Notes: generated by a model from the sequence alone, not told the origin. DNA of 29,115 nucleotides from a virus (IMGVR_UViG_2547132281_000011); one strand, 5' to 3'; positions 13,116-26,616 are shown, counted from the stretch's first letter. Numbers and translations: made by a program.

Positions 13116-14710
13116 CAGAATCCCTCCAGCATACGGGCCGCCTGACGACGACGGCGTGAGCTTGCCTTCACCGGCCCTTTGTTAATTTCACGGCTGGCGA
13201 AATACGCCAGCGCCAGTGCGATGGCTGAATCCCCGTGGCGTTTACCACCGTCAGCCTTTGCTTTTGAGCGTTGCTCCGGTACGCGGGGGACACCGTTCAC
13301 CACCTGAACGGCCCGCAGGTCATCCAGTGTGTCTTCATCCTTTGGTAAGTCCACCAGGTTACCGTCTTCCAGTGCAGCTTTGACCGGAGGCATATGCTCC
13401 CTGTACCAGCCTTCGGTTGGCATCACCTGCTGAATCCGGCTGGAGCCGTAGCGCTGCATGGCGTATTCAGCCAGATAGGCACCATTACCACGGGCATCAA
13501 ACGCTGCACCCAGCAGACCGGGCAGGCCATCCATCAGATACCAGGTGATTTGCTCCTGCTGTCTGAACGGCACGTTACGCAGCTCCAGTACGAATGGCAC
13601 GCGTCGTACCAGGTTCTTCTCCTGCAGCAGGGGATAGTCCACCGACAAATCACCGCTACGGCCAAAGTCGCGCCCCAGGAAAGAGCGGGCATCAGTGGGG
13701 AGTGCCTCCAGCAATGGTTTCAGATACTCATCAAGCCAGTCCTGCGTCTCGCGGAAGCGAACCTCATCAGACAGCAGTTCATAACCTTCCTTGCAGGTCA
13801 GACGCAATACCGGCGTATCAGCGGACATGCGGGACTCTATCAGGGCACGGGACAGCCAGGCACCGCCACCGTTGGCCGGAATACAGTCAAGCTCTTCGGA
13901 TGCGCCGGCACCGTAGAATTTGTACACCGATGCCATCCAGGCCTGCTCGGAGGCCTCCGACCATTCCTTCCCGGTGCGCAGACAGACGCGCCGGAACAGC
14001 CCCTCAGATACGGCTTCCCGGAAAGTGATGCGATGTATGCTGCCTCCCTGACGTCCGGCACGGATATCCCCGATAAGCGTATTGAACGGATTGTCGTCAC
14101 CGTTATGGGTGGAGATAACGTGTACCTTCCCCCCCCAGATAAGCATCGCCAGCGCCGCTTTCAGCAGTTCGTCCAGTTGCTCATGGAACGCCGCTTCGTC
14201 GATAACAATAATACCCTGACGGCCACGCAGGTTAGACGGGCGGCTGGAGAGCGCAACAATACGAAAGCCGGAGTCAGGAAATTTGATGGTGTAAGTCCTG
14301 ATGTGTTTGTCGTCGTCGTCCTCTTCCCAGAATCCTTCTTCAATTTCACTGGCCGCATAGTTGAATGCCCGTGCCCACATCGCACACGCCTGAATGTATT
14401 CGACGGTCATGTCCTGGTTATAAGCGATGTAATACACATTCATCCCGCCTGCTGGCGCAGAAGAGGCGGCGGTCAGTACGTTATCGGATGCCTCAGCCCA
14501 TGTAATACCGGTACGACGGCTCTTTTCTATCACCTTAAGCGGAGAGGTGTCTGCCACCCAGCGCTGCTGGTAAGGCAACAGAACGGGAGGGGCATCCAGC
14601 GCCGAGGTATCAGGCAAAACGGGAGCAAGGTTATTCCTCCCGTCCATGGGACTCATCCCTTCGGGGCCGCCGCCAGCGGCGTTTAAAATCACTCCGGATG
14701 ATTTTGTCAT
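13115..14710 (-). CDS. Terminase large subunit
   Basis: 531 aa, ATGA-coupled to the upstream small-subunit-like gene and followed by portal. Confidence 0.8.
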   Translation of the reverse strand: MTKSSGVILNAAGGGPEGMSPMDGRNNLAPVLPDTSALDAPPVLLPYQQRWVADTSPLKVIEKSRRTGITWAEASDNVLTAASSAPAGGMNVYYIAYNQDMTVEYIQACAMWARAFNYAASEIEEGFWEEDDDDKHIRTYTIKFPDSGFRIVALSSRPSNLRGRQGIIVIDEAAFHEQLDELLKAALAMLIWGGKVHVISTHNGDDNPFNTLIGDIRAGRQGGSIHRITFREAVSEGLFRRVCLRTGKEWSEASEQAWMASVYKFYGAGASEELDCIPANGGGAWLSRALIESRMSADTPVLRLTCKEGYELLSDEVRFRETQDWLDEYLKPLLEALPTDARSFLGRDFGRSGDLSVDYPLLQEKNLVRRVPFVLELRNVPFRQQEQITWYLMDGLPGLLGAAFDARGNGAYLAEYAMQRYGSSRIQQVMPTEGWYREHMPPVKAALEDGNLVDLPKDEDTLDDLRAVQVVNGVPRVPEQRSKAKADGGKRHGDSAIALALAYFASREINKGPVKASSRRRRQAARMLEGF

Positions 14711-15252
14711 GTGGCAATCCCCAGAATCTCGCGACGAAGCGCCTGTACTGCGTCGCTTGACAGTCCGCCCTTACGGGCAATTTTCTCTGCGTTGCTGGCT
14801 GCCTGCTGCGCTCTGGCCCGCACTTCAGACTGGAACTTTTTGAGGTTGACGGACGCGCGTGACAGCGTAGCCACATTCTTCGCCACCTTCGACAGCAGGG
14901 CCACGCGTTCTTTAGGATCGACTTCGCCTTCTTCCGCCTCCTGCAACTGGACAATACTCTCGAACAGCTCGGTCTGAATAAGGGCTATCACAGCCTCCGA
15001 ACGCGCATCCAGATCGTCTGCTGCGCCTTCGGTCAGCATGCGGGCCGCTTCTGTCGCCGCACGGATAGCACCATAGCGGCGCTCAATCTTCTGTCCATAG
15101 CGATGGATAGCGGATTTGCTGATGACGTACCCCCGCTCACGCAGCAGGGACTCCAGCTCGTTATACCCGCTGAAGCCGGATTCAGTCAGCGCCCGTTCAA
15201 GCCAGCGGCGCACGTCTTCCGGCAGCTTTTCTATTGTGCTGCGTCTGGCCAT
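14707..15252 (-). CDS. Terminase small subunit-like protein (Mu gp27 position)
   Basis: 181 aa, helical and charged; translationally coupled to the large subunit gene. Confidence 0.55.
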   Translation of the reverse strand: MARRSTIEKLPEDVRRWLERALTESGFSGYNELESLLRERGYVISKSAIHRYGQKIERRYGAIRAATEAARMLTEGAADDLDARSEAVIALIQTELFESIVQLQEAEEGEVDPKERVALLSKVAKNVATLSRASVNLKKFQSEVRARAQQAASNAEKIARKGGLSSDAVQALRREILGIAT

Positions 15253-15563
15253 TATTCACTCCAGTACTTTTCCGGGCGGGCAATACCCGGACCACATTCC
15301 ACGGTGTATTCCACCAGGTCTACGCCGAGGCGGGTCAGGTCAGCAAACCAGTCACCAGAAGGTTTTTTCTCCAGCTCAACCATTTTACGGTCAGCCAGAT
15401 AATCCAGTTCGCGGCGCAGCTCCAGCGGTGTGGTGTCCGGGTAGATGGCACGGGACACATCCAGCAGCAGCGTCTCGCTGGCGGTGTAAGGGCGGGTCTT
15501 GTTCAGGGCAACCAGCAGACTCCAGCGCAGGGATTCGCGGCGTACTCGGGTAATATCGACCAT
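15252..15563 (-). CDS. Hypothetical protein (Mu gp26 position)
   Basis: 103 aa, by synteny. Confidence 0.45.
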   Translation of the reverse strand: MVDITRVRRESLRWSLLVALNKTRPYTASETLLLDVSRAIYPDTTPLELRRELDYLADRKMVELEKKPSGDWFADLTRLGVDLVEYTVECGPGIARPEKYWSE

Positions 15564-15889
15564 TATTGACCTCCGGTATTGCGGTACTGCTGTACCACTT
15601 CCAGTTTGTTATAAAGCGCGTCCAGTTTGGCCTCAATGACTGTCTGGCCACGGATATAATCCTCTCGACGGACATAATTCAGCGGTAAATCCGCTTTAAA
15701 TCGCATAAATTCTTTTTCCAGCTCGCCCCAGTTGGAGGCGGATTGTTGCAGGGCCTGTTCAAGGGAGGCGAATCGTGCCGCCTGGCGTTCTTCTGTTTTA
15801 CTGAACAACCATTTGGCGAGCCCTCCCACAAACCCCATGAAGGTGAGCAGAAAACTCACCACCGTCCAGAATTCAACCTGCAGTGTCAT
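15563..15889 (-). CDS. Small membrane protein (Mu gp25 position)
   Basis: 108 aa with N-terminal hydrophobic helix (FWTVVSFLLTFMGFVGGLAKWLF). Confidence 0.5.
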   Translation of the reverse strand: MTLQVEFWTVVSFLLTFMGFVGGLAKWLFSKTEERQAARFASLEQALQQSASNWGELEKEFMRFKADLPLNYVRREDYIRGQTVIEAKLDALYNKLEVVQQYRNTGGQ

Positions 15890-16536
15890 TTCTGTAATCC
15901 TTCCCGTTCATCCAGCAGCGCGTTTATCTGGTTCCGCCAGCGACGACATTGCCATGCGTTGTCGATGATGTTGGCGAGAACGTCACGCTGGGAGACACCC
16001 GAATCGCGTAACCGGGTGTCAGTGGTTTCAGGTTGCCCGGTCGCTGTGCCAGAGCGGGTGCCAGTGGCGGCAACTGAGTCTGAATGACCGGTGTCGACGG
16101 ATGCGTTGTCATATCCGAGTGCGGCGTTGTACTGGCGCACGAAACCGCGAGTAAACACGCACTCAATGGGATGGCTCTTACCTTTTTCATCAATCCAGCG
16201 CTGTGTGACATCGTTAATTTGCCCCTGTAGTTGTTTATTCCGGCTCTCCAGTTGAGCAATCTGCTCAAGATAACCGGCTTCAGCCCGCTGCCCGGCGGCC
16301 ACCTGCTCCTGATACCGTCTGGCCCAGGCCCGCAGCGCAGCATTCTCAAGCGTTGCCTGCGCCGTTTTGTACGCGTCAAATGCTGACTGCAACTGACTGA
16401 GCGCGGTATTACCGTCACGCTTTGCAGAGTCATGACCACTTCTGTATCCCATGGCATACAGGCCGATCAGAAAGGCATTGATAAGAATGGCCAGCAGAAT
16501 GCCGCGCCACGGCAGCTTTTTAACCAGATGCCACAC
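15886..16536 (-). CDS. Inner-membrane spanin (Rz-like)
   Basis: N-terminal TM (WRGILLAILINAFLIGLYAMG) then coiled-coil periplasmic domain; probable GTG start at 16536 behind GGGAGG (ORF track start 16638 overlaps the endolysin gene). Confidence 0.6.
   Translation of the reverse strand: MWHLVKKLPWRGILLAILINAFLIGLYAMGYRSGHDSAKRDGNTALSQLQSAFDAYKTAQATLENAALRAWARRYQEQVAAGQRAEAGYLEQIAQLESRNKQLQGQINDVTQRWIDEKGKSHPIECVFTRGFVRQYNAALGYDNASVDTGHSDSVAATGTRSGTATGQPETTDTRLRDSGVSQRDVLANIIDNAWQCRRWRNQINALLDEREGLQK
15924..16190 (-). CDS. Outer-membrane lipoprotein spanin (Rz1-like) embedded in the +1 frame of Rz
   Basis: MKKVRAIPLSAC... with lipobox LSAC and proline-rich mature part; entirely inside the Rz-like gene. 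Confidence 0.6.
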   Translation of the reverse strand: MKKVRAIPLSACLLAVSCASTTPHSDMTTHPSTPVIQTQLPPLAPALAQRPGNLKPLTPGYAIRVSPSVTFSPTSSTTHGNVVAGGTR

Positions 16537-17254
16537 AACTGCTGCCTCCCCATGTGAGATATCGCGGTGCCAGTTCGCGCAGGATGCGCTGCGGATAATG
16601 GCGGTTCTCCCGCCAGCTGGCCGCATTGCGTCCGGCATTCACCGTGGCGACATGTCCGAACCAGCGGGTGCTGTCCAGACCTTTCTGTGATGCAAGCCGC
16701 CTGTCCCGTTGTACCCAGCCCAGACCACCGTTATAGCCTGACAGTGTCATGGCCATACGCTCGCAGTCGTTGGCGGCGCTGACGCGCTGCCACAGCCAGC
16801 GGTCATAGCTGACCAGCGCCCGGATGGCCCATGCCGGATTAAACGGCTCACGGCTGTTAAGTCCCGGCATCAGCTGACTTATCCAGTCGGCAGTGGCAGG
16901 CATGAACTGCGCCAGTCCCTGAGCACCAGCCGGCGAGACCGCATCAGGTCGCCAGCCGCTTTCCTGATGCAGTTGCGCGGCGAAATCTGCCACCGGCGCA
17001 GACAGTCCCCATTCAAGCCGGGCATTACGGATCACATCATCGCGATACTGCAGCGCAGCCTGCGGAGGCTGCGCTGCGCGGGCCTGACTGAAGAAGCCAC
17101 CACACCAGAGCAGCCAGACAATCACCAGGTTGCCAGCAAGCTGCCACCAGAAGCTGTATTTATCGTTACGTGGTTCGCCGTGTCTGATGGCGGTTACGCC
17201 CAGACCAAAGGCGAACAGAATAATGAGGGTGATTTGAGGCCAGTTCATGGTCAC
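16520..17254 (-). CDS. Membrane-anchored (SAR-type) endolysin with lytic transglycosylase domain
   Basis: N-terminal TM (WPQITLIILFAFGLGVTAI) then SLT motif AAQLHQESGWRPDAVSPAGAQGLAQFMPATA. Confidence 0.8.
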   Translation of the reverse strand: MTMNWPQITLIILFAFGLGVTAIRHGEPRNDKYSFWWQLAGNLVIVWLLWCGGFFSQARAAQPPQAALQYRDDVIRNARLEWGLSAPVADFAAQLHQESGWRPDAVSPAGAQGLAQFMPATADWISQLMPGLNSREPFNPAWAIRALVSYDRWLWQRVSAANDCERMAMTLSGYNGGLGWVQRDRRLASQKGLDSTRWFGHVATVNAGRNAASWRENRHYPQRILRELAPRYLTWGGSSCVASG

Positions 17255-17601
17255 AGTCCTGTTGCCACAGCCAGACAGACCGCTGCAACAATCAGTGCAC
17301 GGCGGATTAACGCAGCAGAAAATACAAGGTGAAGGCCGGTCTGCACAGGGAAACGCCCTTCAGCCATCAGCCTGTCTTCATGTTTCAGGTACTGACCGGG
17401 ACGGGCTTTGGGGAAGAGCGAACGGTCAAGCCAGTAACCCAGCACTGCTGCCAGCGTGATGAGTGCCAGCTTGTAGATCACAACAGGCAACTGCTGTGGC
17501 GAGACCAGAGCGATGGTGCCCAGCAACAGCACTGAGGTCAGCAGCCAGCCGCTGAGGCGAGGTTTTTTAACAGGGGGAATGAATTTTTTCAGGCTTTTCA
17601 T
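17251..17601 (-). CDS. Holin-like small membrane protein, first gene of the lysis/late operon
   Basis: 116 aa from ATG 17601 behind AAGGAG; multiple hydrophobic helices; ATGA overlap with endolysin gene. Confidence 0.5.
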   Translation of the reverse strand: MKSLKKFIPPVKKPRLSGWLLTSVLLLGTIALVSPQQLPVVIYKLALITLAAVLGYWLDRSLFPKARPGQYLKHEDRLMAEGRFPVQTGLHLVFSAALIRRALIVAAVCLAVATGL

Positions 17602-17687
17602 GTGTGTCTCCTTGTTTGGTGGAGACAGCATCACAAATGTGGCGGGATACGGATTTTAAAGCGCGTTATAAGTGTTCGCAGAGGGAA

Positions 17688-17704
17688 GCGACCAGAATGG
17701 TCGC
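17688..17704. promoter_or_regulatory. Perfect 7-3-7 dyad GCGACCAgaaTGGTCGC upstream of the lysis operon (candidate activator/operator site)
   Basis: Exact inverted repeat about 85 bp upstream of the holin-like start, in the divergent intergenic region. Confidence 0.3.
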
Positions 17705-17731
17705 ACACAAAACATAGGGGAGGCAAGCACA

Positions 17732-18055
17732 ATGACTGAACCGAAACAGTCTGGTATTAAAAAAGGGTTCCTCTTTGGGAGCAGAATCGGAGAGCAGAAT
17801 AAAACTTACACGCTAAGCTTGGATGCATGTTGTCCAACCGAAGCGATTATAGAGCTGAAAAACGTTCTGGTTGCACTTGAAGAGAGAAGAAGTCATTTCG
17901 CCAGCGGAGAAAACAATGTCATGCTAATTGGCGATGTGGCGGCGACATCACGATATAAAACCGCACCTAATCCTGCGATTCAGTTATCCTTCGACCAACG
18001 AATACTGGAAGCGGAATCAGCAGTTCCCAGAACGGTTCGTCCTCACCAGTCTTAA
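17732..18055 (+). CDS. Hypothetical protein
   Basis: 107 aa from ATG 17732 behind GGGGAGG; 3' end overlaps the convergent ORF 17967-18542 by 89 nt, so one of the two may be spurious. Confidence 0.35.
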   Translation: MTEPKQSGIKKGFLFGSRIGEQNKTYTLSLDACCPTEAIIELKNVLVALEERRSHFASGENNVMLIGDVAATSRYKTAPNPAIQLSFDQRILEAESAVPRTVRPHQS

Positions 18056-18542
18056 CTGGGGCTGCTTCACCCGACCAGTAAAGCCAAGCACGGTGATACA
18101 GTTCCAGCACCGGGCAATCACTGTTCAATAACCTCATATCTCCGCGATGCACCTGCTCATTTGTGATGACTTCATATATCGGTGCCGTTCTTATTTCGTC
18201 TTCGCCTCTCTCATCAGCCAGTAATTCCCTGAACTTCCTGACTTCACTCAGATGCTGACAGGCAAACAGTGACTGATAGCGGGAAGGTTTATCAGGAAAA
18301 TGGCTACGGCGAACTAACTCAAACACCAGACCGACCAGCAGACTTCTGCTGATTCCACTGTCATCTTCCATTTTAGGGCCGGGGTTATAGAGATAGTTAT
18401 ACCCGTGACTCGAAAGGCCATTGGGATACATCTGATGAAGAAAAGCGGCCAGTTCTGGCATTTCAGGCTCGTATTTTCCGGTAATTACATGACAAGGCGA
18501 AGGCAGACGACTAGCGGAATCAAGTGTGTAATACGTTCCCAT
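17967..18542 (-). CDS. Hypothetical protein, 191 aa
   Basis: Long ORF with AAGGA upstream; no motif I can recognise. Confidence 0.45.
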   Translation of the reverse strand: MGTYYTLDSASRLPSPCHVITGKYEPEMPELAAFLHQMYPNGLSSHGYNYLYNPGPKMEDDSGISRSLLVGLVFELVRRSHFPDKPSRYQSLFACQHLSEVRKFRELLADERGEDEIRTAPIYEVITNEQVHRGDMRLLNSDCPVLELYHRAWLYWSGEAAPVKTGEDEPFWELLIPLPVFVGRRITESQD

Positions 18543-18657
18543 TCAGAAAACAATCCTTATCGAACAAACACTGCACGTAGGTAATACATCCAGTAAATCG
18601 CGTTAATAGAAATCATGTATCTCAAAACTTCACTCTGAACTCTGACAGTGAAAGAAC

Positions 18658-18689
18658 GACCAGCCCGGTACCCGAACTCCGGGCTGGTC
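18658..18689 (-). terminator. Strong hairpin, putative terminator of the repressor-linked operon
   Basis: Perfect 11-bp stem GACCAGCCCGG / CCGGGCTGGTC with 10-nt loop; on the minus strand followed by GTTCTTTCACTG. Confidence 0.4.
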
Positions 18690-18951
18690 ATCGCCCCACA
18701 GGAATGCACTGTGAGCCGACCGAGGTTCAGTCAGTCTCGCGAGACCAGACTAGCCTGCCATATTTTTTATAATTATAAAAGGGTTACAGATTATGAAAAT
18801 GCAGACATTCCCCATCGCTCCATGGATTGGTTGTAAACGCCGCCATGCCAGACATATTCTGGCCGATGTTTCCTAGCACGCACGAATATGAGGCAACTGA
18901 CGAGAATAAATGATGCGTCAGAATGAACCGTCGACACCGTGCTTTCAGGTT

Positions 18952-19563
18952 TCAAAAATCTGGAGAAGGTATATCTATCTGACCGACGTTTCGTAACCAC
19001 ATCTCTTGCTTTGTTTCTTTATTGGTTCGGGCGATATCATTAGCATTGTATCTGCATGTTTTAACCGCAACCTCACGAACTCGTGCTATAGGAGTATTTG
19101 TGTAGAATTTAAGATCTTCCTCTACCGCTCGTATGGCGATAAGCCCTCCACTCTGAAAACCGCTGGTTACTTTTAAAAGATCAACTCCTTGGTTATAAAC
19201 GGCATTACATACGTTAGGGAACTCATCTTCTACAGTTTTGGGGATCATCAGCATATCAGGAAGACCCTGTAACACGTTATCTTCCTTTGGCCTCCATGCC
19301 CTTCCCAAAAAAGCTGTTATAGGTTGTGGTGTAGAAAGAAATGCCAATTCTATATAAAACAAACCACTGTAGTGATCGCGTAACGAATAGACTAGTAAAT
19401 GATCTTTTCCAGTTTTACTTGCATTGCTAAGTTTTATATCAAATGGTTTTTTCTGGTACTTAAGCAATCCATCAACTCCCGCATAATAATGCTTTGAAAC
19501 AGCAACAGAAAGTTGATGTACTTGGTTCGGATAATCTGTTCTATATCGTTTAATTAGCCCCAT
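18952..19563 (-). CDS. Hypothetical 203-aa protein, second gene of repressor-linked accessory operon
   Basis: ATG 19563 with GAGG 6-7 nt upstream, 20 nt after the upstream gene; AT-rich; no recognisable motif. Confidence 0.6.
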   Translation of the reverse strand: MGLIKRYRTDYPNQVHQLSVAVSKHYYAGVDGLLKYQKKPFDIKLSNASKTGKDHLLVYSLRDHYSGLFYIELAFLSTPQPITAFLGRAWRPKEDNVLQGLPDMLMIPKTVEDEFPNVCNAVYNQGVDLLKVTSGFQSGGLIAIRAVEEDLKFYTNTPIARVREVAVKTCRYNANDIARTNKETKQEMWLRNVGQIDIPSPDF

Positions 19564-19583
19564 AATAGCCTCGCAGTTATTTT

Positions 19584-20570
19584 CTATTTCAAAATATAAC
19601 GATATTTACTATCTGGAGTGTTTTGTTGGTCAAGTAATAGAGCTCTACATGGGGCGGTCAAAACACGGGCATAACGACCATCGGGGTTTATGTTGATGTA
19701 ACAAGTTTTCCCTTTAACACCATAAGATTCAGGTATTATTGCCTGTGTAGACACCGTGAATTTAAGGGTATGCCAGCCCGATTTTTGCTTGTAGCTTGAA
19801 ACCGAATGGAAATCATCTGAGTACTTATTTAACCCTGGAAACATGCTGCGTAATGCTGGGATGGAATCTTCTATTATTTTGTCGTTGGTTTTAATGTTAA
19901 AAACGCTGGTTTCAGTAGATGCTACTGCTTTAGCATTTCCCCATTTACCAGCGAACACAATCATTCCCACGAAAAATATTGCGACAAGAACTAACGCTCC
20001 CCCCAACACTACTACATGAGGCTTCCGGCTTCTGGTTGGTACAGTCGCGACTGATTTTGCCCCGCTGTCCGATGGAGGTGATAGAGTTTTACTCTCATCA
20101 CGAATATTCAGCAGATCATCAAAATAACCAAACACAGCCTGCAACTGCTCTTTGTCCAGGCCTTTAAGATGGGTTGTACCGAAATGCTTCAGACAGTATC
20201 TGTCACGGTCAAGACGATACCTAGGGTCAGTAAGCACCATTATTTTGCTGACCAGAAGATTACAGTCCTTCATATTCTGGATCTGTTGTGCATATCTCTG
20301 GAGGATCTCAACCGCACCATGATAATCAGCCGCAGTCATTTCATTAACTGTTTTGGTATTAAGTTTCGTGTGGATCGTCATCCATAGTTCGCGCTTACTT
20401 TCCCCCAGATCAACCAATTCATCCATCAATCTGTGTAAATCGCGTTTTTGCAGCAACGAAATTGGTTGCTGGGCAGAGGGAAGTATGTCAGCAGAATAGT
20501 TATGAATGGTAACATCACCGCTGACAACGTTACCCACATCTCCGTTAACTGTTTGCTTCTCTTTACTCAT
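19584..20570 (-). CDS. Single-pass membrane protein (cytoplasmic ~190-aa N-domain, one TM, ~115-aa C-domain), translationally coupled to repressor gene
   Basis: TM segment VVVLGGALVLVAIFFVGMIVFAG; start ATG overlaps repressor stop (ATGA at 20567-20570); N-terminus NGDVGNVVSGDVTIH echoes the repressor C-terminus. Confidence 0.65.
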   Translation of the reverse strand: MSKEKQTVNGDVGNVVSGDVTIHNYSADILPSAQQPISLLQKRDLHRLMDELVDLGESKRELWMTIHTKLNTKTVNEMTAADYHGAVEILQRYAQQIQNMKDCNLLVSKIMVLTDPRYRLDRDRYCLKHFGTTHLKGLDKEQLQAVFGYFDDLLNIRDESKTLSPPSDSGAKSVATVPTRSRKPHVVVLGGALVLVAIFFVGMIVFAGKWGNAKAVASTETSVFNIKTNDKIIEDSIPALRSMFPGLNKYSDDFHSVSSYKQKSGWHTLKFTVSTQAIIPESYGVKGKTCYININPDGRYARVLTAPCRALLLDQQNTPDSKYRYILK

Positions 20571-21028
20571 TTTCTCTTTGTATTTTTGTTCATTATTCCA
20601 CCTGTTCCTATGGTTACGTTACCTTTGATAACATTCCCCAGAACATCTCCATGAATAACCTGTTCCGCCCGTTCTCTGGAGGAGCCAGTCGTCAATGCCG
20701 ACAAAACTGAACCTTTGACTTGTAACGGTGCTTGCCGGTAGTGCTGAAGTAACTCCATTTCATCACGTGATAAAGTTATACCTGATGATTCCCCAGTAAG
20801 AATGAACTGTACGTTGGCCCCAATTCTTGCAAAGGCTGCAAGTAACTCACCTCCGGGAACTGCAACCCCTCGTTCATATTTCCCCCACATTTCTCTTGAA
20901 ACGCCACAAAGGGCTGCTACTTCAGCCTGCTTGAGTGATAACCGCGAACGCTCAGCTTTGAACCGCGACGCGCAAAGAGAATCAAAATTCACATAAACCT
21001 CATTGACAATGAGAACAATAGTTCTCAT
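20567..21028 (-). CDS. Prophage repressor, XRE/Cro-CI-type HTH (functional analogue of Mu c)
   Basis: HTH motif LSLKQAEVAALCGVSREMWGKYERG; divergent from the early operon; start codon lies within the early-promoter operator region, leader apparently very short. Confidence 0.75.
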   Translation of the reverse strand: MRTIVLIVNEVYVNFDSLCASRFKAERSRLSLKQAEVAALCGVSREMWGKYERGVAVPGGELLAAFARIGANVQFILTGESSGITLSRDEMELLQHYRQAPLQVKGSVLSALTTGSSRERAEQVIHGDVLGNVIKGNVTIGTGGIMNKNTKRK

Positions 21029-21031
21029 AAT
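21004..21031 (+). promoter_or_regulatory. Early promoter (Pe-like), sigma70-type
   Basis: TTGACA (21004-21009), 16-nt spacer, CATAAT (21026-21031), about 45 nt upstream of the ner-like ATG. Confidence 0.55.
21010..21027. promoter_or_regulatory. Operator: perfect 18-bp palindrome TGAGAACAATAGTTCTCA
   Basis: Exact 7-4-7 dyad filling the spacer of the early promoter and abutting the repressor start codon. Confidence 0.55.
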
Positions 21032-21078
21032 CTATCACATATAAAACAAACATCATTGCATCAACAAAGGAGACAACA

Positions 21079-21267
21079 ATGACTTCCGAACAAGTTAAAA
21101 CTCTCTTCCGTCAGCGTGGTATCACGTTTACCCGCTGGGCCGAAGAACACGGCTACAGCCGCAATGAGGTCTATCGTGTTCTCAATGGACAGACCAAAGC
21201 TCGTTACGGCAAAGCCCATGAAATTGCCGTAAAGCTGGGATTAAAACCCACGTCAAATGCGGCATAA
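21079..21267 (+). CDS. Small Ner/Cro-like DNA-binding protein, first gene of early operon
   Basis: 62 aa, AAGGAG RBS, HTH-like FTRWAEEHGYSRNEVYRVLNG; position as Mu ner. Confidence 0.55.
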   Translation: MTSEQVKTLFRQRGITFTRWAEEHGYSRNEVYRVLNGQTKARYGKAHEIAVKLGLKPTSNAA

Positions 21268-21319
21268 ATTTTCCATATATGCAACAGGTTATCACATATT
21301 GCAAAAATGGAAATGTGAC

Positions 21320-21628
21320 ATGAGTAAAGTAAATATCTCCAGTTCCGGGACCCGCATCCTACGTGTACTCAAAGCTCTACGCGGTCACTCTCTGAACGGT
21401 GTTTCTAACGGTGAACTGGCATCAGCCCTAGATGAGTCCCCGGCGAACATCAATCGAGCACTCAATACCCTTATCGAAGAGGGACTAGCCCTGAAACTGG
21501 AAAACGGGCGTTTCGCACCAGGCATCCAGTTGCTGCAGATCGCCATGGCCCACAGTAACGAGATGGCACGTGCACAGGATCGCATTAACGAAATCAACCA
21601 ACGTGTTATTTCAGGTAGTCGTTTGTAA
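21320..21628 (+). CDS. Winged-helix-like DNA-binding protein
   Basis: 102 aa from ATG 21320; TRILRVLKALRGHSLNGVSNGELASALDESPANINRALNTLIEEGL resembles wHTH regulators; start uncertain. Confidence 0.45.
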   Translation: MSKVNISSSGTRILRVLKALRGHSLNGVSNGELASALDESPANINRALNTLIEEGLALKLENGRFAPGIQLLQIAMAHSNEMARAQDRINEINQRVISGSRL

Positions 21629-21638
21629 GGAGTAATCA

Positions 21639-22550
21639 ATGGGACGCACCAAATCACCGGTTAGCACTGAACTGAACGTCGAGGTACCGCTGTCGGATGA
21701 TCTCAATGTCAGTCTAAACGCCATGACACAGCATCGCATGGAAATCATGCAACAGTTCGGCGATGGTCTGCCCTATGAGCGCGATCGTGTTGTCCATGAG
21801 GCACGCTTTTATATGGCACAGAGCGCTGAGGCCATGCTGGAGGCAGGTAAGCGGCTGATAATCCTTAAGGAAAATGAACCACACGGGGAGTTTATAAAGA
21901 TTCTTGAAAGTGAGTTGGGGCTGGCATACCGGACATCTGTGAGAATGATGCAAGCATCGACAAAATACTTATCCCCGGCGCTGAAACCAAATGTGCCAAC
22001 GTTGGCACATTTGGGAAAAGCCAAACTTTTCGAATTAATGACAGAAGACGACGAAGAGCTTGCCGAACTGGCCGACGGCGGCACAGTTGCCGGCATGACG
22101 CTTGACGATGTTGATCGCATGTCAGTACGTGAATTGCGTCAGGCCCTGCGTGAAGCGCGCGAAACCAACGCAGCACAACAGCGTGTTCTCGCCGATAAAA
22201 ATGAAAAAATAGACTCACTCTCCACCAGACTGGAGAAGAAATCCCGTATTCAGCCACCTGAGCCTGATGAAGAGGTGAAGAAACTGCGGGCGGAAGTGAC
22301 CGCGTTAGCGGTTGAGGCGGAATCTGCCATCGCCGTTCGACTGTCCAGCGCTTTTGAGACACTGTGCGCATATTGTGCTGAAAACATGATTGATACCCCC
22401 AGAGACTTCATGGCAGGCCTGGTCTGTCAACTGGAAAGCACAGCGCGTAGCCTGCGCTCCACATTTGACCTGCCGGACGAGCCAACAGGCGATGTCGCGC
22501 CTTCATGGCTGACTGAGCCGACGCCACAGATTAACGGGCTGGAGGCATAA
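21639..22550 (+). CDS. Hypothetical early protein, 303 aa (possibly DUF3102-like), with coiled-coil C-terminal half
   Basis: Strong AAGGAG RBS; charged helical region (RELRQALREARETNAAQQRVLADKNEKIDSL); not present at this position in Mu itself. Confidence 0.55.
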   Translation: MGRTKSPVSTELNVEVPLSDDLNVSLNAMTQHRMEIMQQFGDGLPYERDRVVHEARFYMAQSAEAMLEAGKRLIILKENEPHGEFIKILESELGLAYRTSVRMMQASTKYLSPALKPNVPTLAHLGKAKLFELMTEDDEELAELADGGTVAGMTLDDVDRMSVRELRQALREARETNAAQQRVLADKNEKIDSLSTRLEKKSRIQPPEPDEEVKKLRAEVTALAVEAESAIAVRLSSAFETLCAYCAENMIDTPRDFMAGLVCQLESTARSLRSTFDLPDEPTGDVAPSWLTEPTPQINGLEA

Positions 22551-22553
22551 CCA

Positions 22554-24323
22554 ATGAATGCTGCCCTGACTGAACGACTGGTTTATGTCGCCCGCGCGGC
22601 ACGTGACGCGGGGCATGGTAAACGCGGTGCAATATACGACGCGGCCTGTGCTGAACTTGGCATGTCCCGCGCCACTCTGCTGCGCAGGCTGAAGGAGGTA
22701 TCTGTGACTGATAAACGCAAAAAACGCGCCGATGCCGGGCGCAGCGCCCTGACCCGCGACGAAGCCGCGCTGATATCTGCCACACTGCGTGAGGCCACCC
22801 GCAAGAACGGTAAGCGTCTCTATTCCATCGCAGATGCAGTGGAAACCCTGCGGGCTAACGGCTTTATCTCCGCAGGCAGAACAGATGAAACCACCGGTGA
22901 GTTTTTCCCGTTGTCCGAAGATGCCATCAGTCGTGCCTTGCGTAACTATGGCCTGCACCCGGAACAACTGGATGCCCCTGCGCCGCATACCGAAGTGGCC
23001 AGTCTGCATCCCAATCACGTCTGGCAGATTGATGCCTCGCTCTGCACGCTTTACTACCTGAGCAATGGACACAAAGGGCTGCAGGTGATGGACAGCGCGA
23101 AGTTCTACAAGAACAAACCCGCTAACCTTGCCCGTATCGCCAGTGACCGCGTGTGGAGTTACGAGATTACCGACCATGCCAGCGGCTGGATTTACGTTGA
23201 GTATGTGACGGGTGCGGAATCCGGTGAGAACCTGTGTTCTGTGCTTATCAACGCCATGCAGGAGCGTGGCGGCGCAGACGTGCTGCACGGCGTGCCGAAA
23301 ATACTCTATCTCGACCCCGGCTCGGCAAACACCGCGGGTATGACGAAAAACATGTGCCGCTCACTGGGCATCGACCTGATAGCGCACAAGCCGCATAACG
23401 CCCGCGCCACCGGACAGGTGGAAAAGGCGCGTGACATTATCGAACGCAAGCTGGAGCCGGGTCTGAAGTTCCGGCCGGTTCACAGTCTGGAAGAACTCAA
23501 CGCGCTGGCCGCGAAATGGCGCAGCCACTTTAACGCCACGGCTGTTCACAGCCGCCACGGTAAAACCCGCACGGATATCTGGCTGAAGATTACTGCTGAG
23601 CAGCTGAAAAAAGCGCCTTCCGTTGAGGTATGTCGTGAACTGGCTGTGGCGGCACCAGAACTCCGCAAAGTCACGCCAAAACTTCGTGTCTCGTTCCGGG
23701 GCACTGAATTTGACGTATCAACGGTACCGGGCGTACTGGTTGGTGAAAAACTGATGATTACCCGTAACCCATGGCGCAGCGATGTGGCACAGGTGGTTCT
23801 GACCGGTGAGGACGGCCACGAGACGTTCTTCCTGGTCGAAGAGGTCAGAAAGAACGAGTTTGGCTTTGCTGAAGGCGCGGCGGTATTTGGCGAAAGTTAC
23901 AAAGCCCTGCCGGAAACCCCGGCACAGATGGCGGCAAAAGAAACCGAAGCGCTGGTTACCGGTACAGACAACGCCGCAGATGCAGCCGCCGCACGCAAGG
24001 CGAAGGCGCTGCCGTTCGGCGGGCGGCTTGACCCGTATAAACATATCGACGACACCACACTTCCGGCCTATATGCCGAAGCGTGGTCAGGCCTCTGACGT
24101 ACGCGGGCCGCGCACTGAACAACGTCCCATGACTCATGTGGAGGCCGCGAAAGCCCTGCGCGATAAGTTCAGCGCCGACGGCCTTACCTGGACGCCGGAA
24201 CATTACCGCCAGTTAACGGCACAGTACCCGGACGGCGTACCGGAAGCCGCACTGGATGAAGTCATGGCCACGCTGACCACACCGGCCCGCAGCAGTGTTA
24301 TCAGCATTGTTAACGGCAACTGA
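22554..24323 (+). CDS. DDE transposase, Mu-type (MuA-like)
   Basis: 589 aa; rve-type core with candidate DDE residues (HVWQIDAS ... LYLDPGSANT ... downstream Glu); GGAGG RBS; followed by overlapping AAA+ ATPase gene. Confidence 0.85.
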   Translation: MNAALTERLVYVARAARDAGHGKRGAIYDAACAELGMSRATLLRRLKEVSVTDKRKKRADAGRSALTRDEAALISATLREATRKNGKRLYSIADAVETLRANGFISAGRTDETTGEFFPLSEDAISRALRNYGLHPEQLDAPAPHTEVASLHPNHVWQIDASLCTLYYLSNGHKGLQVMDSAKFYKNKPANLARIASDRVWSYEITDHASGWIYVEYVTGAESGENLCSVLINAMQERGGADVLHGVPKILYLDPGSANTAGMTKNMCRSLGIDLIAHKPHNARATGQVEKARDIIERKLEPGLKFRPVHSLEELNALAAKWRSHFNATAVHSRHGKTRTDIWLKITAEQLKKAPSVEVCRELAVAAPELRKVTPKLRVSFRGTEFDVSTVPGVLVGEKLMITRNPWRSDVAQVVLTGEDGHETFFLVEEVRKNEFGFAEGAAVFGESYKALPETPAQMAAKETEALVTGTDNAADAAAARKAKALPFGGRLDPYKHIDDTTLPAYMPKRGQASDVRGPRTEQRPMTHVEAAKALRDKFSADGLTWTPEHYRQLTAQYPDGVPEAALDEVMATLTTPARSSVISIVNGN

Positions 24324-24333
24324 GGAGGGAAAC

Positions 24334-25500
24334 ATGCTGGTACTGAAGCAGCAACTGAAAGAGGCCCGTATTCCACAGGCGGTGGTGGCGAGAGCTGTCG
24401 ATGTTTCTGAGGCCACGCTGGCCCAGATTGTGAATCATAACGCGTGGCCCCGCACCAGCCCCGGAGAAGTGCGCCGGCGTCTTGCGTCCTGGCTGGAAAG
24501 TCAGGGGATTGATACAACGAAGAGTTTTGATGCTGTACAGGGCGCGGCCACGCCCCGTACAGCGGGTACCACAGATAAAACGAGCCTCAGTGAGGAAGAG
24601 AATATGTTACTCAAAAAACAGGTGTTATTTCCAGCAACCAAAAAAGCGTTTGGTCTTTTCCGTGACCCGTTCGCCGACGAAGCCATGCAGGGTTCTGATG
24701 ATGTGTTCACCACCCCGGACATTCGCTACGTGCGTGAGGCGCTGTACCAGACAGCCCGTCATGGTGGGTTTATGGCCGTCATCGGTGAGTCCGGTGCGGG
24801 TAAATCCACGCTGCGCCGCGACCTGACTGAACGTATCAACCGCGAGAATGCGCCGGTAATTGTTATCGAGCCATACATCATCGCTATGGAAGACAACGAT
24901 GTGAAAGGGAAAACCCTGAAGGCAGCAGCTATTGCCGAAGCCATTATCAGTACCATCGCACCACTGGAAAGCATCAGACGCAGTCAGGACGCCCGTTTTC
25001 GCCAGTTGCATCGCGTCCTGAAAGACAGCAGCCAGGCGGGGTTCAGCCACGTTCTGGTGATTGAGGAGGCCCACAGTCTGCCCATTCCGACACTGAAACA
25101 CCTCAAACGCTTTTTTGAGCTGGAGTCCGGTTTCAAAAAACTGCTGTCCATCGTGCTGATTGGCCAGCCGGAACTGGCGACAAAACTGTCTGAACGCAAT
25201 ATGGAAGTCCGTGAAGTCGTTCAGCGCTGTGAGGTGGTCGAACTTCTGCCTCTGGACAATAACCTTGAAGAATTTCTGACGTTCAAACTGCAACGGGCCG
25301 GTAAACAGCTGACGGACATTATGGACGCCGGTGCAGTGGATGCCATACGTGCCCGCCTGAGCAATCCGGGAAGTCACCGTAAAAATATGGTCAGCCTGCT
25401 GTATCCGCTGGCCGTCAGTAACCTGGTAATAGCCGCCATGAATCTGGCCGCTGAAATCGGGGTTCCACAGGTCAACGCTGACGTTGTCAAAGGGGTTTAA
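24334..25500 (+). CDS. Transposition AAA+ ATPase (MuB/TniB-like)
   Basis: Walker A GESGAGKST; start ATG 24334 behind GAGGAGGG, just after transposase stop (ORF-track start 24295 is an upstream extension). Confidence 0.85.
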   Translation: MLVLKQQLKEARIPQAVVARAVDVSEATLAQIVNHNAWPRTSPGEVRRRLASWLESQGIDTTKSFDAVQGAATPRTAGTTDKTSLSEEENMLLKKQVLFPATKKAFGLFRDPFADEAMQGSDDVFTTPDIRYVREALYQTARHGGFMAVIGESGAGKSTLRRDLTERINRENAPVIVIEPYIIAMEDNDVKGKTLKAAAIAEAIISTIAPLESIRRSQDARFRQLHRVLKDSSQAGFSHVLVIEEAHSLPIPTLKHLKRFFELESGFKKLLSIVLIGQPELATKLSERNMEVREVVQRCEVVELLPLDNNLEEFLTFKLQRAGKQLTDIMDAGAVDAIRARLSNPGSHRKNMVSLLYPLAVSNLVIAAMNLAAEIGVPQVNADVVKGV

Positions 25501-25502
25501 TA

Positions 25503-25766
25503 ATGAAATCCACCACAGGTATCAACCAGCAAATCAGCAAAGTGCAGTCAGCCATTATGGCGCTTAAGGCGACGAACACGGATGTACAAAGCATCACCAT
25601 CAGGGGTAACAAACCTGTCATCCGCGTTTCCCGGAGTGCGCATTGCATGCGCATGCTTGAGCAGGGAAAGGCCTGTTATACCGGACATGACCACAGGGGA
25701 TATTTCCGTCAGGGCGTTTTCGAACTGCACGGCTGTCGCGTCGTGTGGCCGGAATCTTTGTGGTAA
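25503..25766 (+). CDS. Hypothetical early protein (Kil position)
   Basis: 87 aa directly after the ATPase gene; function not recognisable. Confidence 0.45.
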   Translation: MKSTTGINQQISKVQSAIMALKATNTDVQSITIRGNKPVIRVSRSAHCMRMLEQGKACYTGHDHRGYFRQGVFELHGCRVVWPESLW

Positions 25767-25793
25767 TCAGCACAACTGGAGAAATCATAAGAT

Positions 25794-26324
25794 ATGGCAA
25801 AAAGTACAAAAGGGGCAAAACGTATCAAGTCCGCAGCGGCACTCTGGGTACCGGGGACACGCGAAGAGGTCATTGAGGGAATCAGACTGCTCGGTGACGC
25901 ACAACGTGAACTGGTCAGGGCTGAAACAGAAATGAATGACGCCATTGGCGATATCACCGCACGTTATGCCCCGCTCACCGAGAGCCTAAAAAAACGCATG
26001 GCCGAACTGCAGTCCGGTATTCAGACATGGTGTGAGGCACACCGTGATGAACTGACCGGCAACGGGAAGGTGAAGTTCGCTAACCTCACCACCGGCGAGG
26101 TGCAGTGGCGAAACCGTCCGCCATCAGTCAGTATCCGTGGAGCGGATAATGTTATTGAACTACTGAGACGTCTGGGGCTTGAGCGCTTTATTCGTGTAAA
26201 AGAGGAAATAAATAAAGATTCCATTCTGAATGAAAAAGAGGCCGTGAAAAATATTCCCGGTATTACCATAAAAAGTGATATTGAGGATTTTTCAATAATT
26301 CCTTTTGAGCAGGATGTGCAGTAA
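25794..26324 (+). CDS. gam: Gam-like DNA-end binding / host nuclease inhibitor protein
   Basis: 176 aa; MAKSTKGAKRIKSAAALWVP... and ...VQWRNRPPSVSIRG...IEDFSIIPFEQ closely resemble Mu Gam as recalled. Confidence 0.85.
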   Translation: MAKSTKGAKRIKSAAALWVPGTREEVIEGIRLLGDAQRELVRAETEMNDAIGDITARYAPLTESLKKRMAELQSGIQTWCEAHRDELTGNGKVKFANLTTGEVQWRNRPPSVSIRGADNVIELLRRLGLERFIRVKEEINKDSILNEKEAVKNIPGITIKSDIEDFSIIPFEQDVQ

Positions 26325-26421
26325 ACACACCACGTTAATTATTTAATAAAAACATTTTCTTTTTTATTCCGGCGTCAGCGCCGTGGGCTTCTGCACGCCG
26401 GAAACAGAGGAGAATTAAATT

Positions 26422-26616
26422 ATGATATTTAAATGTATTCAGTGCGAGAGGGATATAACAGCCCTGCGTTTTCACAGCGCCATCGCCGTGATGTCCGGTA
26501 AGTACCACGTACCTGCAGTACGTGTCACCCTGGTCTGTCCGTACTGCAGCCAGCATTTTTCGGCGGACGTGCCCGTCATGGAATTCTTCCGCCCTGACAG
26601 GGAGGACGCGCAATGA
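26422..26616 (+). CDS. Small zinc-ribbon protein
   Basis: 64 aa with CxxC ... CPYC pairs; GAGGAG RBS. Confidence 0.45.
   Translation: MIFKCIQCERDITALRFHSAIAVMSGKYHVPAVRVTLVCPYCSQHFSADVPVMEFFRPDREDAQ

What the first reader, a model, noticed from the sequence alone, without database searches (positions are those of the whole stretch)
18900..21300. Compositional island: AT-rich block embedded in GC-rich prophage
Sampled 60-nt stretches are about 30% GC around 19.4-19.9 kb and 43-50% GC across the repressor and ner-like genes, against about 65% in the head region (for example near 12.0 kb). This indicates separate evolutionary origin of the immunity/accessory region.
Basis: seen in the sequence. 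Interest (0 to 1): 0.35.

Follow-up and report, generated by a model that had tools for sequence, protein, structure and literature searches.

The report
AT-rich immunity and cargo slot of Mu-like prophage
The AT-rich block is real, but it is the ordinary swappable immunity-and-accessory slot of a Mu-like E. coli prophage; the one unusual thing in it is a gene for a copy of the phage's own transposase core that has lost all three catalytic residues.

Summary
The low-GC block is real and larger than reported. Segmentation places it at 17561-21335 (43.7% GC), against 57.2% and 54.2% on either side. No 2.4-kb window reached 42.1% in 2000 block shuffles, and GC3 falls to 0.29-0.46.

The window is a BcepMu-type transposable prophage of E. 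coli. The block lies between the leftward lysis/head/tail arm and the rightward early operon. Comparison with relatives shows a mosaic of four independently distributed pieces:
- a DUF2441 gene;
- a truncated dam stub with a conserved hairpin;
- a 203-aa gene (hyp203);
- a repressor plus a 328-aa membrane protein (hyp328).

The repressor pair is about as diverged from Salmonella and Yersinia relatives as the backbone, and it is AT-rich in every genus examined. Low GC is therefore a standing property of this slot, not proof of recent import.

The kind of feature is known; phage KS10 has a published example at the same position.

The new part is hyp203. It is homologous to the prophage's own DDE transposase core, and all three catalytic residues are replaced across its family. 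Its function is unknown. A role as a transposase decoy is speculative.

The parts
17561..21335 (.). Low-GC segment (43.7% GC) as defined by entropy segmentation. This is the true extent of the compositional island.
   Evidence: Flanks are 57.2% (2361-17560) and 54.2% (21336-29115). 0 of 2000 block shuffles reach the observed minimum.
17251..17601 (-). Holin, the first gene of the leftward late lysis/head/tail arm. It is conserved backbone and forms the left flank of the slot.
   Evidence: Pfam Holin_2-3, E 1.5e-40. RefSeq annotation. Homology with all variants runs to about 17668-17674.
17675..18648 (.). Sub-block A: cargo cassette carrying the DUF2441 gene.
   Evidence: Shared only with the L004 type, at 90%. 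Present in 32 of 5426 E. coli genomes.
17967..18542 (-). DUF2441 protein (191 aa). Pfam places the family in the ADP-ribosyltransferase clan. Function unknown.
   Evidence: Pfam PF10386, 31.8 bits against a cutoff of 25. phrog_5663, E 2e-65. Clan membership from PMC7955679. GC3 0.46.
18649..18792 (.). Conserved non-coding element that lies upstream of dam in relatives. It includes the hairpin at 18659-18690, which looks like a terminator on the - strand.
   Evidence: 80-92% identical in L003, L004, L005 and L015 while the flanks differ. Hairpin -32.6 kcal/mol, z -3.0. Terminator-like scan hit. No Rfam family.
18793..18876 (+). 5' stub of a DNA adenine methylase (dam) gene: 27 codons, a frameshift after '...HIL', then a stop. 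It is the scar of a cargo replacement.
   Evidence: Alignment with intact dam genes of L003 and L004. Homology ends at 18873. Sequence read.
18952..19563 (-). hyp203: a standalone homologue of the DDE transposase catalytic core that lacks the D, D and E residues. It is the most AT-rich gene in the island (38.9% GC, GC3 0.29).
   Evidence: AF2 pLDDT 91.7. Foldseek hits to TnsB, IstA, retroviral integrases and MuA cores, E down to 1e-7. hhalign to the window's TnpA residues 148-347, 96% probability, E 3.7e-9. Catalytic columns non-acidic in all 42 members. tblastn finds only phage transposase A genes. Present in 26 E. coli genomes.
19584..20570 (-). hyp328: a single-pass membrane protein. It has a cytoplasmic helical N-domain with weak similarity to Flk, a variable linker, a TM helix at about 193-216, and a C-terminal alpha/beta domain with two invariant Cys. 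Its start overlaps the repressor stop (ATGA).
   Evidence: Alignment A1. AF2 model. NCBIfam Flk, E 1.6e-11, far below the cutoff. phrog_10002. Junction sequence. Always directly downstream of the repressor in 6 loci.
20567..21028 (-). HTH (Cro/CI-type) repressor. This allele has a C-terminal G-D-V-x-GNV-x-x-G-x-V-T tail that mirrors the hyp328 N-terminus.
   Evidence: Pfam HTH_31 and HTH_3. Alignments A4 and A5. GC3 0.37.
21003..21031 (+). Sigma-70 promoter-like site (TTGACA-17-CATAAT, 11 of 12 matches) facing the early operon. The right-hand homology boundary of the slot lies here.
   Evidence: Sequence. L003 and L005 homology resumes at 21026/21027.
21079..21267 (+). ner/cro-like small DNA-binding protein of the BcepMu gp16 family, the first gene of the early operon.
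   Evidence: TIGR04111, 93.9 bits against a cutoff of 34. phrog_925.
22554..24323 (+). DDE (rve) transposase TnpA of the prophage, the parent-type protein of hyp203. The triad is read as D160, D254 and E290.
   Evidence: Pfam rve. Motifs VWQIDAS, ILYLDPGS and TGQVEKARD are conserved in 5 transposases.

Best explanation
The AT-rich block is the lysogeny/immunity-plus-cargo slot of a BcepMu-type transposable prophage. It sits where the leftward late arm (holin, endolysin, head, tail) and the rightward early arm (ner-like, wHTH, DUF3102, DDE transposase, MuB-like ATPase, Gam ... Mor) diverge.

It is a mosaic of four pieces, each with its own distribution among relatives:
(A) a DUF2441 cassette;
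(B) a conserved hairpin element with the 5' stub of a dam gene destroyed by a replacement;
(C) hyp203;
(D) the repressor with hyp328.

Inferred mechanism: in the lysogen, a leftward promoter next to the early promoter transcribes repressor, hyp328 and hyp203 as one operon. The first two genes overlap by ATGA. The third follows after 20 nt and has a GAGG ribosome-binding site. The transcript would end at the hairpin at 18690-18659. The block would then hold the genes the prophage expresses while dormant: immunity plus accessory genes.

The low GC is a long-standing property of this slot in the whole phage family, kept in every genus and every cargo variant examined. It probably reflects a shared pool of AT-rich accessory genes and constraints of a regulatory, lysogen-expressed region, rather than one recent import.

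hyp203 is a catalytically dead derivative of a Mu/Tn552/TnsB-type transposase core. My preferred guess, which is inference only, is that it binds partners or substrates of such transposases without cutting.
For: Identity and layout:
- 100% DNA match to an E. coli chromosomal prophage, with its annotation.
- BcepMu gp16-family protein above the curated cutoff.
- rve transposase, holin and SLT.
- Sequenced phages KP12 and PhiKM are relatives.

The island is real.

Slot boundaries and sub-blocks:
- Breakpoints at about 17674, 18649, 18873, 18950, 19573 and 21026.
- Sub-block counts in E. coli genomes are 32, 26 and 126, against 635 with any part.
- dam stub.

Unrelated alternative cargo in the variants.

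Old residence and persistent low GC of the module:
- Identities are close to those of the backbone.
- GC is 0.42-0.48 in five hosts, against 0.55-0.63 for the backbone.
- Every variant shows a GC dip.

Operon reading:
- ATGA overlap, and a 20-nt gap with GAGG.
- Conserved gene order in Salmonella, Serratia and Yersinia.
- Hairpin.

Published precedent: in phage KS10, genes 11 and 12, immediately downstream of the repressor gene 13, have lower GC and were judged to be later acquisitions (PMC2628397).

Dead-DDE reading of hyp203.
Against: - No expression data. The leftward repressor promoter was not picked up by the consensus scan, so the operon and its terminator are inferred from spacing and a hairpin only.
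- The dinucleotide test is underpowered on 3.4 kb. The island does differ more from the right arm (delta* 94) than the two arms differ from each other (60).
- Why the slot stays AT-rich was not tested. H-NS/IHF binding, expression level and a shared donor pool are all untested possibilities.
- Loss of the hyp203 catalytic residues is read from two sequence alignments, not from a structural superposition.
- Distant homologues of hyp203 are not next to Mu-like transposases.
Confidence: 0.8

Rival explanations
1. This is the reader's strict reading: one genomic island recently acquired as a unit from an AT-rich donor and inserted into a GC-rich phage.
For: There is a large, significant drop in GC and GC3 with sharp change points. 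The full block is rare, in 26 of the 635 genomes that match some part of 17400-21400. hyp203 at 38.9% GC is far below both phage and host.
Against: The sub-blocks have different distributions and separate breakpoints. The repressor-hyp328 stretch is about as diverged from Salmonella and Yersinia relatives as the backbone, and it is equally AT-rich there. All alternative cargos in the slot are also GC-poor. The dinucleotide signature is not distinct from the left arm. No integrase, tRNA or repeats flank the block.
Confidence: 0.07
2. The low GC is functional rather than historical. The region would be AT-rich because it is the regulatory switch and the lysogen-expressed segment. AT-rich DNA carries promoters and operators and binds nucleoid proteins such as IHF and H-NS, as is established for the Mu early regulatory region. 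Weakly expressed accessory genes are also under little pressure on codon GC.
For: The GC dip persists in every genus and every cargo variant, including unrelated repressor alleles. A strong promoter-like site sits at the right boundary. The dip tapers into the first early genes, with GC3 of 0.48 for the ner-like gene, 0.51 for the wHTH gene and 0.54 for DUF3102.
Against: The dip is strongest inside coding sequence at third codon positions (hyp203 GC3 0.29), not in the intergenic operator DNA. Clear recombinational replacement of cargo is seen. No binding or expression data are available. This reading is compatible with, and not exclusive of, the best explanation.
Confidence: 0.35
3. The block is a dedicated anti-phage defence island. 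On this reading DUF2441 (ADP-ribosyltransferase clan), hyp203 and hyp328 are defence or superinfection-exclusion effectors expressed from the prophage.
For: The position next to the repressor is typical of prophage exclusion genes (general knowledge, for example lambda rexAB). Distant hyp203 homologues sit among HipA, ParE, Mrr, DndB, RhuM and SNF2 genes on mobile elements. hyp328 is a membrane protein. DUF2441 belongs to the clan that contains DarT.
Against: There are no PADLOC hits apart from generic HTH matches of the repressor. No known defence domain was found in Pfam or NCBIfam. hyp203 lacks a catalytic triad. The neighbourhood evidence rests on five loci and is anecdotal.
Confidence: 0.25
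4. The GC drop is chance fluctuation or an artefact.
For: None.
Against: 0 of 2000 block shuffles reach the observed value. The same region is identical in 26 independent complete genomes.
Confidence: 0.01

Closest known systems
Burkholderia transposable phage KS10: low-GC genes 11 and 12 next to the repressor gene 13 (PMC2628397); BcepMu family in general
   Same: The architecture is the same: repressor on one strand, gp16-type ner-like gene and transposase on the other. Low-GC genes of unknown function lie immediately downstream of the repressor, and the authors read them as later acquisitions.
   Different: The host and the cargo differ. Here the slot has four separable sub-blocks and a dam scar. 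Here the repressor-linked gene (hyp328) is conserved across four genera rather than being a recent addition.
Phage 'morons' and lysogenic-conversion or exclusion genes next to the immunity region (for example lambda rexAB downstream of cI); general knowledge
   Same: These are accessory genes of deviant composition placed beside the repressor, and presumably expressed in the lysogen.
   Different: Classic morons carry their own promoter and terminator. Here hyp328 and hyp203 appear to ride on the repressor transcript. No function has been shown for any of the cargo.
N-terminally truncated transposase inhibitors such as Tn5 Inh (own knowledge, not tested here)
   Same: Both are transposase-related proteins that lack the DNA-binding N-terminus. 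Such a protein could form non-productive complexes with the active enzyme.
   Different: Inh is translated from the transposase gene itself and keeps the catalytic residues. hyp203 is a separate, highly diverged gene (about 23% identity to TnpA). It has lost D, D and E, lacks the C-terminal domains, and belongs to a family of about 550 clusters found mostly outside Mu-like elements.
DDE transposase / retroviral integrase catalytic cores (TnsB, IstA, MuA, RSV IN; Pfam rve)
   Same: hyp203 has the same RNase H-like fold (TM about 0.55-0.64, Foldseek probability 1.00). It shares the non-catalytic motifs PNxVxQ, DHxSG, GxP, RDI and TKxxxW with BcepMu-type transposases.
   Different: There is no catalytic triad, no DNA-binding domain and no beta-barrel or C-terminal domain. 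The sequence gets no hit from the Pfam rve model.
[quoted passage not shown]
   Same: hyp328 residues 19-147 match the N-terminal part of the Flk model (E 1.6e-11). Both are membrane-anchored with a cytoplasmic N-domain.
   Different: The score is 44 bits against a cutoff of 353. [quoted passage not shown]

Membership tests
BcepMu-type transposable (Mu-like) prophage | DDE (rve) transposase followed by a MuB-like AAA+ protein, Gam and Mor in an early operon | tested here: met
   Pfam rve on 22554-24323. RefSeq annotation lists ExeA-family ATPase, Gam and Mor downstream.
BcepMu-type transposable (Mu-like) prophage | BcepMu gp16-family small DNA-binding protein divergent from an HTH repressor | tested here: met
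   TIGR04111, 93.9 bits against a cutoff of 34, for 21079-21267. HTH repressor at 20567-21028 on the opposite strand.
BcepMu-type transposable (Mu-like) prophage | Mu-type head genes (portal DUF935/Portal_Mu, Mu F, gp27-like small terminase) and a holin/SLT lysis cassette on the other arm | tested here: met
   Annotation. Pfam holin and SLT. Pfam labels on orthologous loci.
BcepMu-type transposable (Mu-like) prophage | 5'-TG...CA-3' termini, terminal transposase-binding repeats and a target-site duplication | not tested
   The window ends inside Mor on the right and at the invertase on the left, so the prophage ends were not examined.
Horizontally acquired genomic island (compositional definition) | Significant deviation of GC and GC3 from the surrounding DNA | tested here: met
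   43.7% against 54-57%. GC3 0.29-0.46 against 0.55-0.70. 0 of 2000 shuffles.
Horizontally acquired genomic island (compositional definition) | Distinct GC-normalised oligonucleotide signature | tested here: not met
   delta* to the left arm is 53. The null for backbone pieces is 44 +/- 9, and 17% are at least as different. The test has low power on 3.4 kb.
Horizontally acquired genomic island (compositional definition) | Presence/absence polymorphism among close relatives, with sharp homology breakpoints | tested here: met
   26 of 635 genomes carry the full block. Breakpoints at about 17674 and 21026.
Horizontally acquired genomic island (compositional definition) | Acquisition as one unit, more recent than the flanks | tested here: not met
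   Four sub-blocks with different distributions. Divergence of the repressor-hyp328 stretch is close to that of the backbone.
DDE transposase / integrase (rve) - for hyp203 | RNase H-like catalytic-core fold and sequence homology to bona fide transposases | tested here: met
   Foldseek E down to 1e-7, probability 1.00. hhalign 96% to the window's TnpA. The profile hits transposase-architecture proteins of about 565 aa at E 1e-20. tblastn hits phage transposase A genes.
DDE transposase / integrase (rve) - for hyp203 | Catalytic Asp-Asp-Glu triad | tested here: not met
   The aligned columns are I/S/T/A/V/M, then P (39 of 42) or T/S, then G. No acidic residue occurs there in any of the 42 members. 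The same holds in a joint alignment with 5 transposases that all keep D, D and E.
DDE transposase / integrase (rve) - for hyp203 | Site-specific DNA-binding domain(s) for the element ends | tested here: not met
   hyp203 begins at the core (it aligns to TnpA 148-347) and ends with it. There is no N- or C-terminal extension.
Flk family - for hyp328 | Full-length match above the NCBIfam equivalog cutoff | tested here: not met
   44.1 bits against a cutoff of 353. Only residues 19-147 align.
DUF2441 (Pfam ADP-ribosyltransferase clan) - for the 191-aa protein | Pfam model match above the gathering threshold | tested here: met
   31.8 bits against 25. Weak match to PDB 2aua. The catalytic motif was not examined.
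Known anti-phage defence systems (PADLOC-DB 2.0) | Match of any cargo protein to a defence-system model | tested here: not met
   DUF2441, hyp203 and hyp328 have no hits at E <= 0.1. Only generic HTH matches were found, for the repressor.

The most novel reading that the evidence does not exclude
hyp203 and its family of about 550 clusters are transposase-core pseudoenzymes that act as decoys. By keeping the non-catalytic surfaces of a Mu/Tn552/TnsB-type core while lacking D, D and E, they would enter or cap transpososomes, or titrate the MuB-like partner, and block transposition.

In this prophage the gene would be expressed with the repressor. It would damp leaky self-transposition or exclude superinfecting transposable phages. 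Elsewhere, on defence-island-like cargo and fused to TPR sensors, it would be a defence against transposing elements.

A second untested idea concerns hyp328. Through the motif it shares with the repressor tail, it might couple an envelope signal to repressor activity.
Probability: 0.12. Interest if true: 0.7.

Novelty: new member of a known kind. Interest (0 to 1): 0.33.

Why it matters
As a compositional island the finding is ordinary. AT-rich, swappable immunity and accessory regions are a textbook feature of temperate phage mosaicism, and one has been described at this very position in a relative (KS10).

There are two useful outcomes:
- A caution: here low GC marks a slot that has stayed AT-rich across four genera, so GC alone over-calls "recent foreign origin".
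- A lead: a widespread, unannotated family of catalytically dead transposase-core proteins, one of which lies in the inferred lysogeny operon of a phage that replicates by transposition. If these proteins turn out to inhibit transposases, they would be a new class of regulator of, or defence against, transposable phages and transposons.

The conserved pairing of the repressor with hyp328, and their shared motif, is a second testable lead on prophage control.

Tried and rejected
- Rfam scan of 17300-21700 at E <= 1 gave only two chance-level hits to eukaryotic and archaeal families. The conserved hairpin element belongs to no known RNA family.
- PADLOC gave nothing for the three cargo proteins.
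- hyp203 had no hit in Pfam, PHROGs or NCBIfam. Only the structure model and profile-profile comparison revealed what it is.
- Profile searches of hyp328 and hyp203 against PDB sequences gave nothing below E 0.5.
- Foldseek of the hyp328 model against PDB and BFVD gave no match at E <= 0.001. The two-domain model with a disordered linker (pTM 0.37) probably limits sensitivity, and the domains could not be searched separately.
- I tested whether the genes occupying the hyp203 position in variants (193 aa in L002, 175 aa in L004) are divergent homologues. They are not; hhalign probability is about 0.1%.
- I looked for a conserved partner gene of distant hyp203 homologues in five loci and found none.
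- The ORF at 18648-18836 across the conserved element was compared with Dam and is not related. The real dam remnant is the 27-codon stub at 18793-18876.
- Literature searches for a dead or dominant-negative transposase in transposable phages found nothing relevant.
- Two scripts failed at first because several loci are stored as records inside one file. This was solved.
Full report
**Observation**

The composition profile shows a trough centred on 19-20 kb. The lowest of all 2401-nt windows (41.9%) starts at 18941. None of 2000 shuffles of 100-nt blocks produced a 2.4-kb window that low.

Recursive entropy segmentation gives four segments:
- 1-2360: 44.3%
- 2361-17560: 57.2%
- 17561-21335: 43.7%
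- 21336-29115: 54.2%

The drop also holds at third codon positions. GC3 is 0.29 for hyp203, 0.37 for the repressor, 0.40 for hyp328 and 0.46 for DUF2441, against 0.55-0.70 for the structural genes.

19.4-19.9 kb is 36.9%, not about 30%. The head region near 12 kb is 59.5%, not about 65%. The island also begins about 1.3 kb further left than stated. The observation itself stands.

**What the window is**

Window 17400-21400 is 100% identical to the chromosome of E. coli ATCC 43896 and at least 99.9% identical to the other full-length matches listed; 26 complete genomes carry the whole stretch. The annotation and family scans show a BcepMu-type transposable prophage.
- On the - strand, running leftwards: holin (17251-17601), SLT endolysin, Mu-type head genes and contractile-tail genes.
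- On the + strand, running rightwards: a BcepMu gp16-family ner-like gene (21079-21267; TIGR04111, 93.9 bits against a cutoff of 34), a winged-helix regulator, DUF3102, a DDE/rve transposase (22554-24323), an ExeA/MuB-like ATPase, Gam and Mor.

Sequenced phages KP12 (Klebsiella) and PhiKM (E. coli) are relatives. The island is exactly the stretch between the two divergent arms.

**Anatomy of the island**

From left to right:
- A DUF2441 protein at 17967-18542 (-).
- A conserved non-coding element at 18649-18792 with a strong hairpin at 18659-18690 (-32.6 kcal/mol, z -3.0).
- A 27-codon stub of a dam gene at 18793-18876 (+). It matches intact dam genes of relatives up to '...HIL', then frameshifts and stops.
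- hyp203 at 18952-19563 (-).
- hyp328 at 19584-20570 (-).
- An HTH repressor at 20567-21028 (-).
- A strong early-promoter-like site at 21003-21031 (+).

The repressor stop and the hyp328 start overlap (ATGA). hyp203 follows 20 nt after hyp328 and has a GAGG ribosome-binding site. I infer a leftward lysogenic operon of repressor, hyp328 and hyp203 that ends at the hairpin. No expression data were available, and the consensus scan did not find the leftward promoter.

**Comparison with relatives**

635 of 5426 complete E. coli genomes match some part of 17400-21400, but only 26 carry the whole block.

Backbone homology with every variant runs to about 17668-17674. It resumes at 21026/21027 in L003 and L005, or at 21319 in L004. 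In between, the variants carry unrelated genes:
- an 'ABC transporter ATPase' plus a 193-aa protein (L002);
- three or four hypothetical proteins plus an intact Dam and a different repressor (L003, L005);
- DUF2441 plus Dam, a 175-aa protein and yet another repressor (L004).

Within the window's version, four sub-blocks have separate distributions:
- A, 17675-18648 (DUF2441): shared with L004 only; 32 E. coli genomes.
- B, 18649-18873 (dam element and stub): shared with L003, L004, L005 and L015.
- C, 18950-19572 (hyp203): 26 E. coli genomes, plus Salmonella and Serratia.
- D, 19573-21026 (hyp328 and repressor): 126 E. coli genomes, plus Salmonella, Serratia and Yersinia.

The region is therefore modular and recombinogenic. 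It is not one island.

**Is low GC evidence of a separate origin?**

Only partly, for four reasons.
- In Salmonella the contiguous match covering hyp203, hyp328, the repressor and the first early genes is 78.8% identical to the window. In Yersinia the match covering hyp328, the repressor and the early genes is 76.5% identical. The adjacent lysis backbone is 81.8% and 80.7% identical. This implies long co-residence with the backbone.
- The orthologous repressor, hyp328 and hyp203 genes are 42-48% GC in E. coli, Salmonella, two Serratia and Yersinia. Their backbones are 55-63%.
- Every cargo variant of the slot shows a GC dip.
- Karlin's dinucleotide signature of the island differs from the left arm by delta* 53. 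Random backbone pieces of the same size give 44 +/- 9, and 17% are at least as different.

Low GC is thus a persistent property of the slot. It is compatible with a shared AT-rich accessory gene pool and with regulatory or expression constraints. It is not a marker of one recent import.

A published parallel exists. In phage KS10, the two genes immediately downstream of the repressor have lower GC and were interpreted as later acquisitions (PMC2628397).

**hyp203 (most AT-rich gene)**

hyp203 had no hit in Pfam, PHROGs, NCBIfam or PADLOC. A 42-sequence alignment gave a confident model (pLDDT 91.7, pTM 0.88). Its best PDB neighbours are catalytic cores of DDE transposases and integrases: TnsB at E about 1e-7 and TM about 0.6, then IstA, RSV and PFV integrases, and MuA.

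Several sequence comparisons point the same way:
- Profile-profile comparison aligns hyp203 residues 7-195 to residues 148-347 of the prophage's own transposase (96% probability, E 3.7e-9). Shared motifs are PNxVxQ, DHxSGxxYxE, GxP, RDI and TKxxxW.
- A plain tblastn against 50,697 phage records finds only transposase A genes of transposable phages such as PhiKM, KP12 and B3.
- The family profile hits proteins of about 565 aa at residues 147-350, which is the layout of the window's transposase, at E 1e-20. They keep D, D and E at the catalytic columns.

At the three catalytic columns, five real transposases have D, D and E (D160, D254 and E290 in the window's enzyme). The 42 hyp203-family members have I/S/T/A/V/M at the first column, P in 39 of 42 (otherwise T or S) at the second, and G at the third. 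None ever has an acidic residue there. hyp203 also lacks the DNA-binding N-terminus and the C-terminal domains.

hyp203 is therefore a transposase-core pseudoenzyme, not a transposase.

The family has about 550 clusters at 50% identity. Most members are standalone proteins of about 200 aa. Some are fused to TPR repeats. Distant members sit among ParE, HipA, Mrr, DndB, RhuM, SNF2 and conjugation genes.

Function is unknown. A decoy or inhibitor role towards Mu-type transposases is attractive but untested. I give it about 12%.

**hyp328 and the repressor**

hyp328 has these parts:
- a confidently modelled helical N-domain (residues 31-160) that weakly resembles the N-terminal part of Flk (E 1.6e-11; 44 bits against a cutoff of 353);
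- a variable linker;
- one TM helix;
- a conserved C-terminal alpha/beta domain with two invariant cysteines, consistent with a periplasmic location.

No structural neighbours were found.

hyp328 directly follows the repressor in every locus examined in E. coli, Salmonella, Serratia and Yersinia. All of those repressors end in a G-D-V-x-GNV-x-x-G-x-V-T motif that mirrors the invariant N-terminus of hyp328. Three repressor alleles without hyp328 lack the motif. This suggests a physical or evolutionary link between the two proteins. I did not test it further.

**Verdict**

The kind of feature is known, and this is a new instance with uncharacterised cargo. Interest is modest and is raised only by the dead-transposase-core gene and the repressor-hyp328 pairing.

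Noticed in passing
window 3579-3580: Window 1-3580 and 3579-29115 are each about 100% identical to ATCC 43896 but lie 10.2 kb apart there. The window lacks most of the tape-measure gene, several tail and baseplate genes and an IS66 copy. None of 5426 complete E. coli genomes contains this junction, so it is a deletion derivative (a defective prophage) or an assembly join.
   Followed up: partly
window 1-2360: A second low-GC segment (44.3%) holds a Gin/Cin-type serine invertase (1-573, -) and opposed pairs of tail-fibre C-terminus and tail-fibre-assembly genes. This is an invertible host-range module like the Mu G segment.
   Followed up: partly
window 20567-20650 (repressor C-terminus) and 20500-20570 (hyp328 N-terminus): The repressor tail (HGDVLGNVIKGNVTIG) and the hyp328 N-terminus (NGDVGNVVSGDVTIHN) share a motif. 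It is present in all six repressors that are followed by hyp328, including one only 42% identical, and absent from three repressor alleles without hyp328. It could be an interaction motif or a local duplication.
   Followed up: partly
window 18649-18876: A conserved element of about 145 nt with a perfect 11-bp core hairpin (14 pairs in the predicted fold) lies upstream of dam in several prophage variants. Loop and stem-top changes between variants keep the pairing. It has no Rfam family. Here it is followed by a 27-codon frameshifted dam stub.
   Followed up: partly
proteins P0086, P0126, P0152, P0158 (relatives of window 18952-19563): In some metagenomic proteins the dead-DDE core domain forms the N-terminus of TPR-repeat proteins of about 500 and about 730 aa. 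One 1184-aa member has GLUG repeats.
   Followed up: partly
window 17967-18542: The DUF2441 protein belongs to a family that Pfam places in the ADP-ribosyltransferase clan, alongside DarT and RES. It is a standalone gene with no obvious partner. The catalytic residues were not examined.
   Followed up: no
window 25800-26620 and 27883-28760: There are smaller GC dips inside the early operon. Gam is 49% GC and two small hypothetical genes are 46-48%. These may be further accessory insertions.
   Followed up: no
window 17672-18055 (+): An unannotated 127-aa ORF starts at the left breakpoint of the slot and overlaps the 3' end of the DUF2441 gene. It has no PHROG or PADLOC hit. In variants L002, L003 and L005 a + strand gene starts at the equivalent position.
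   Followed up: no
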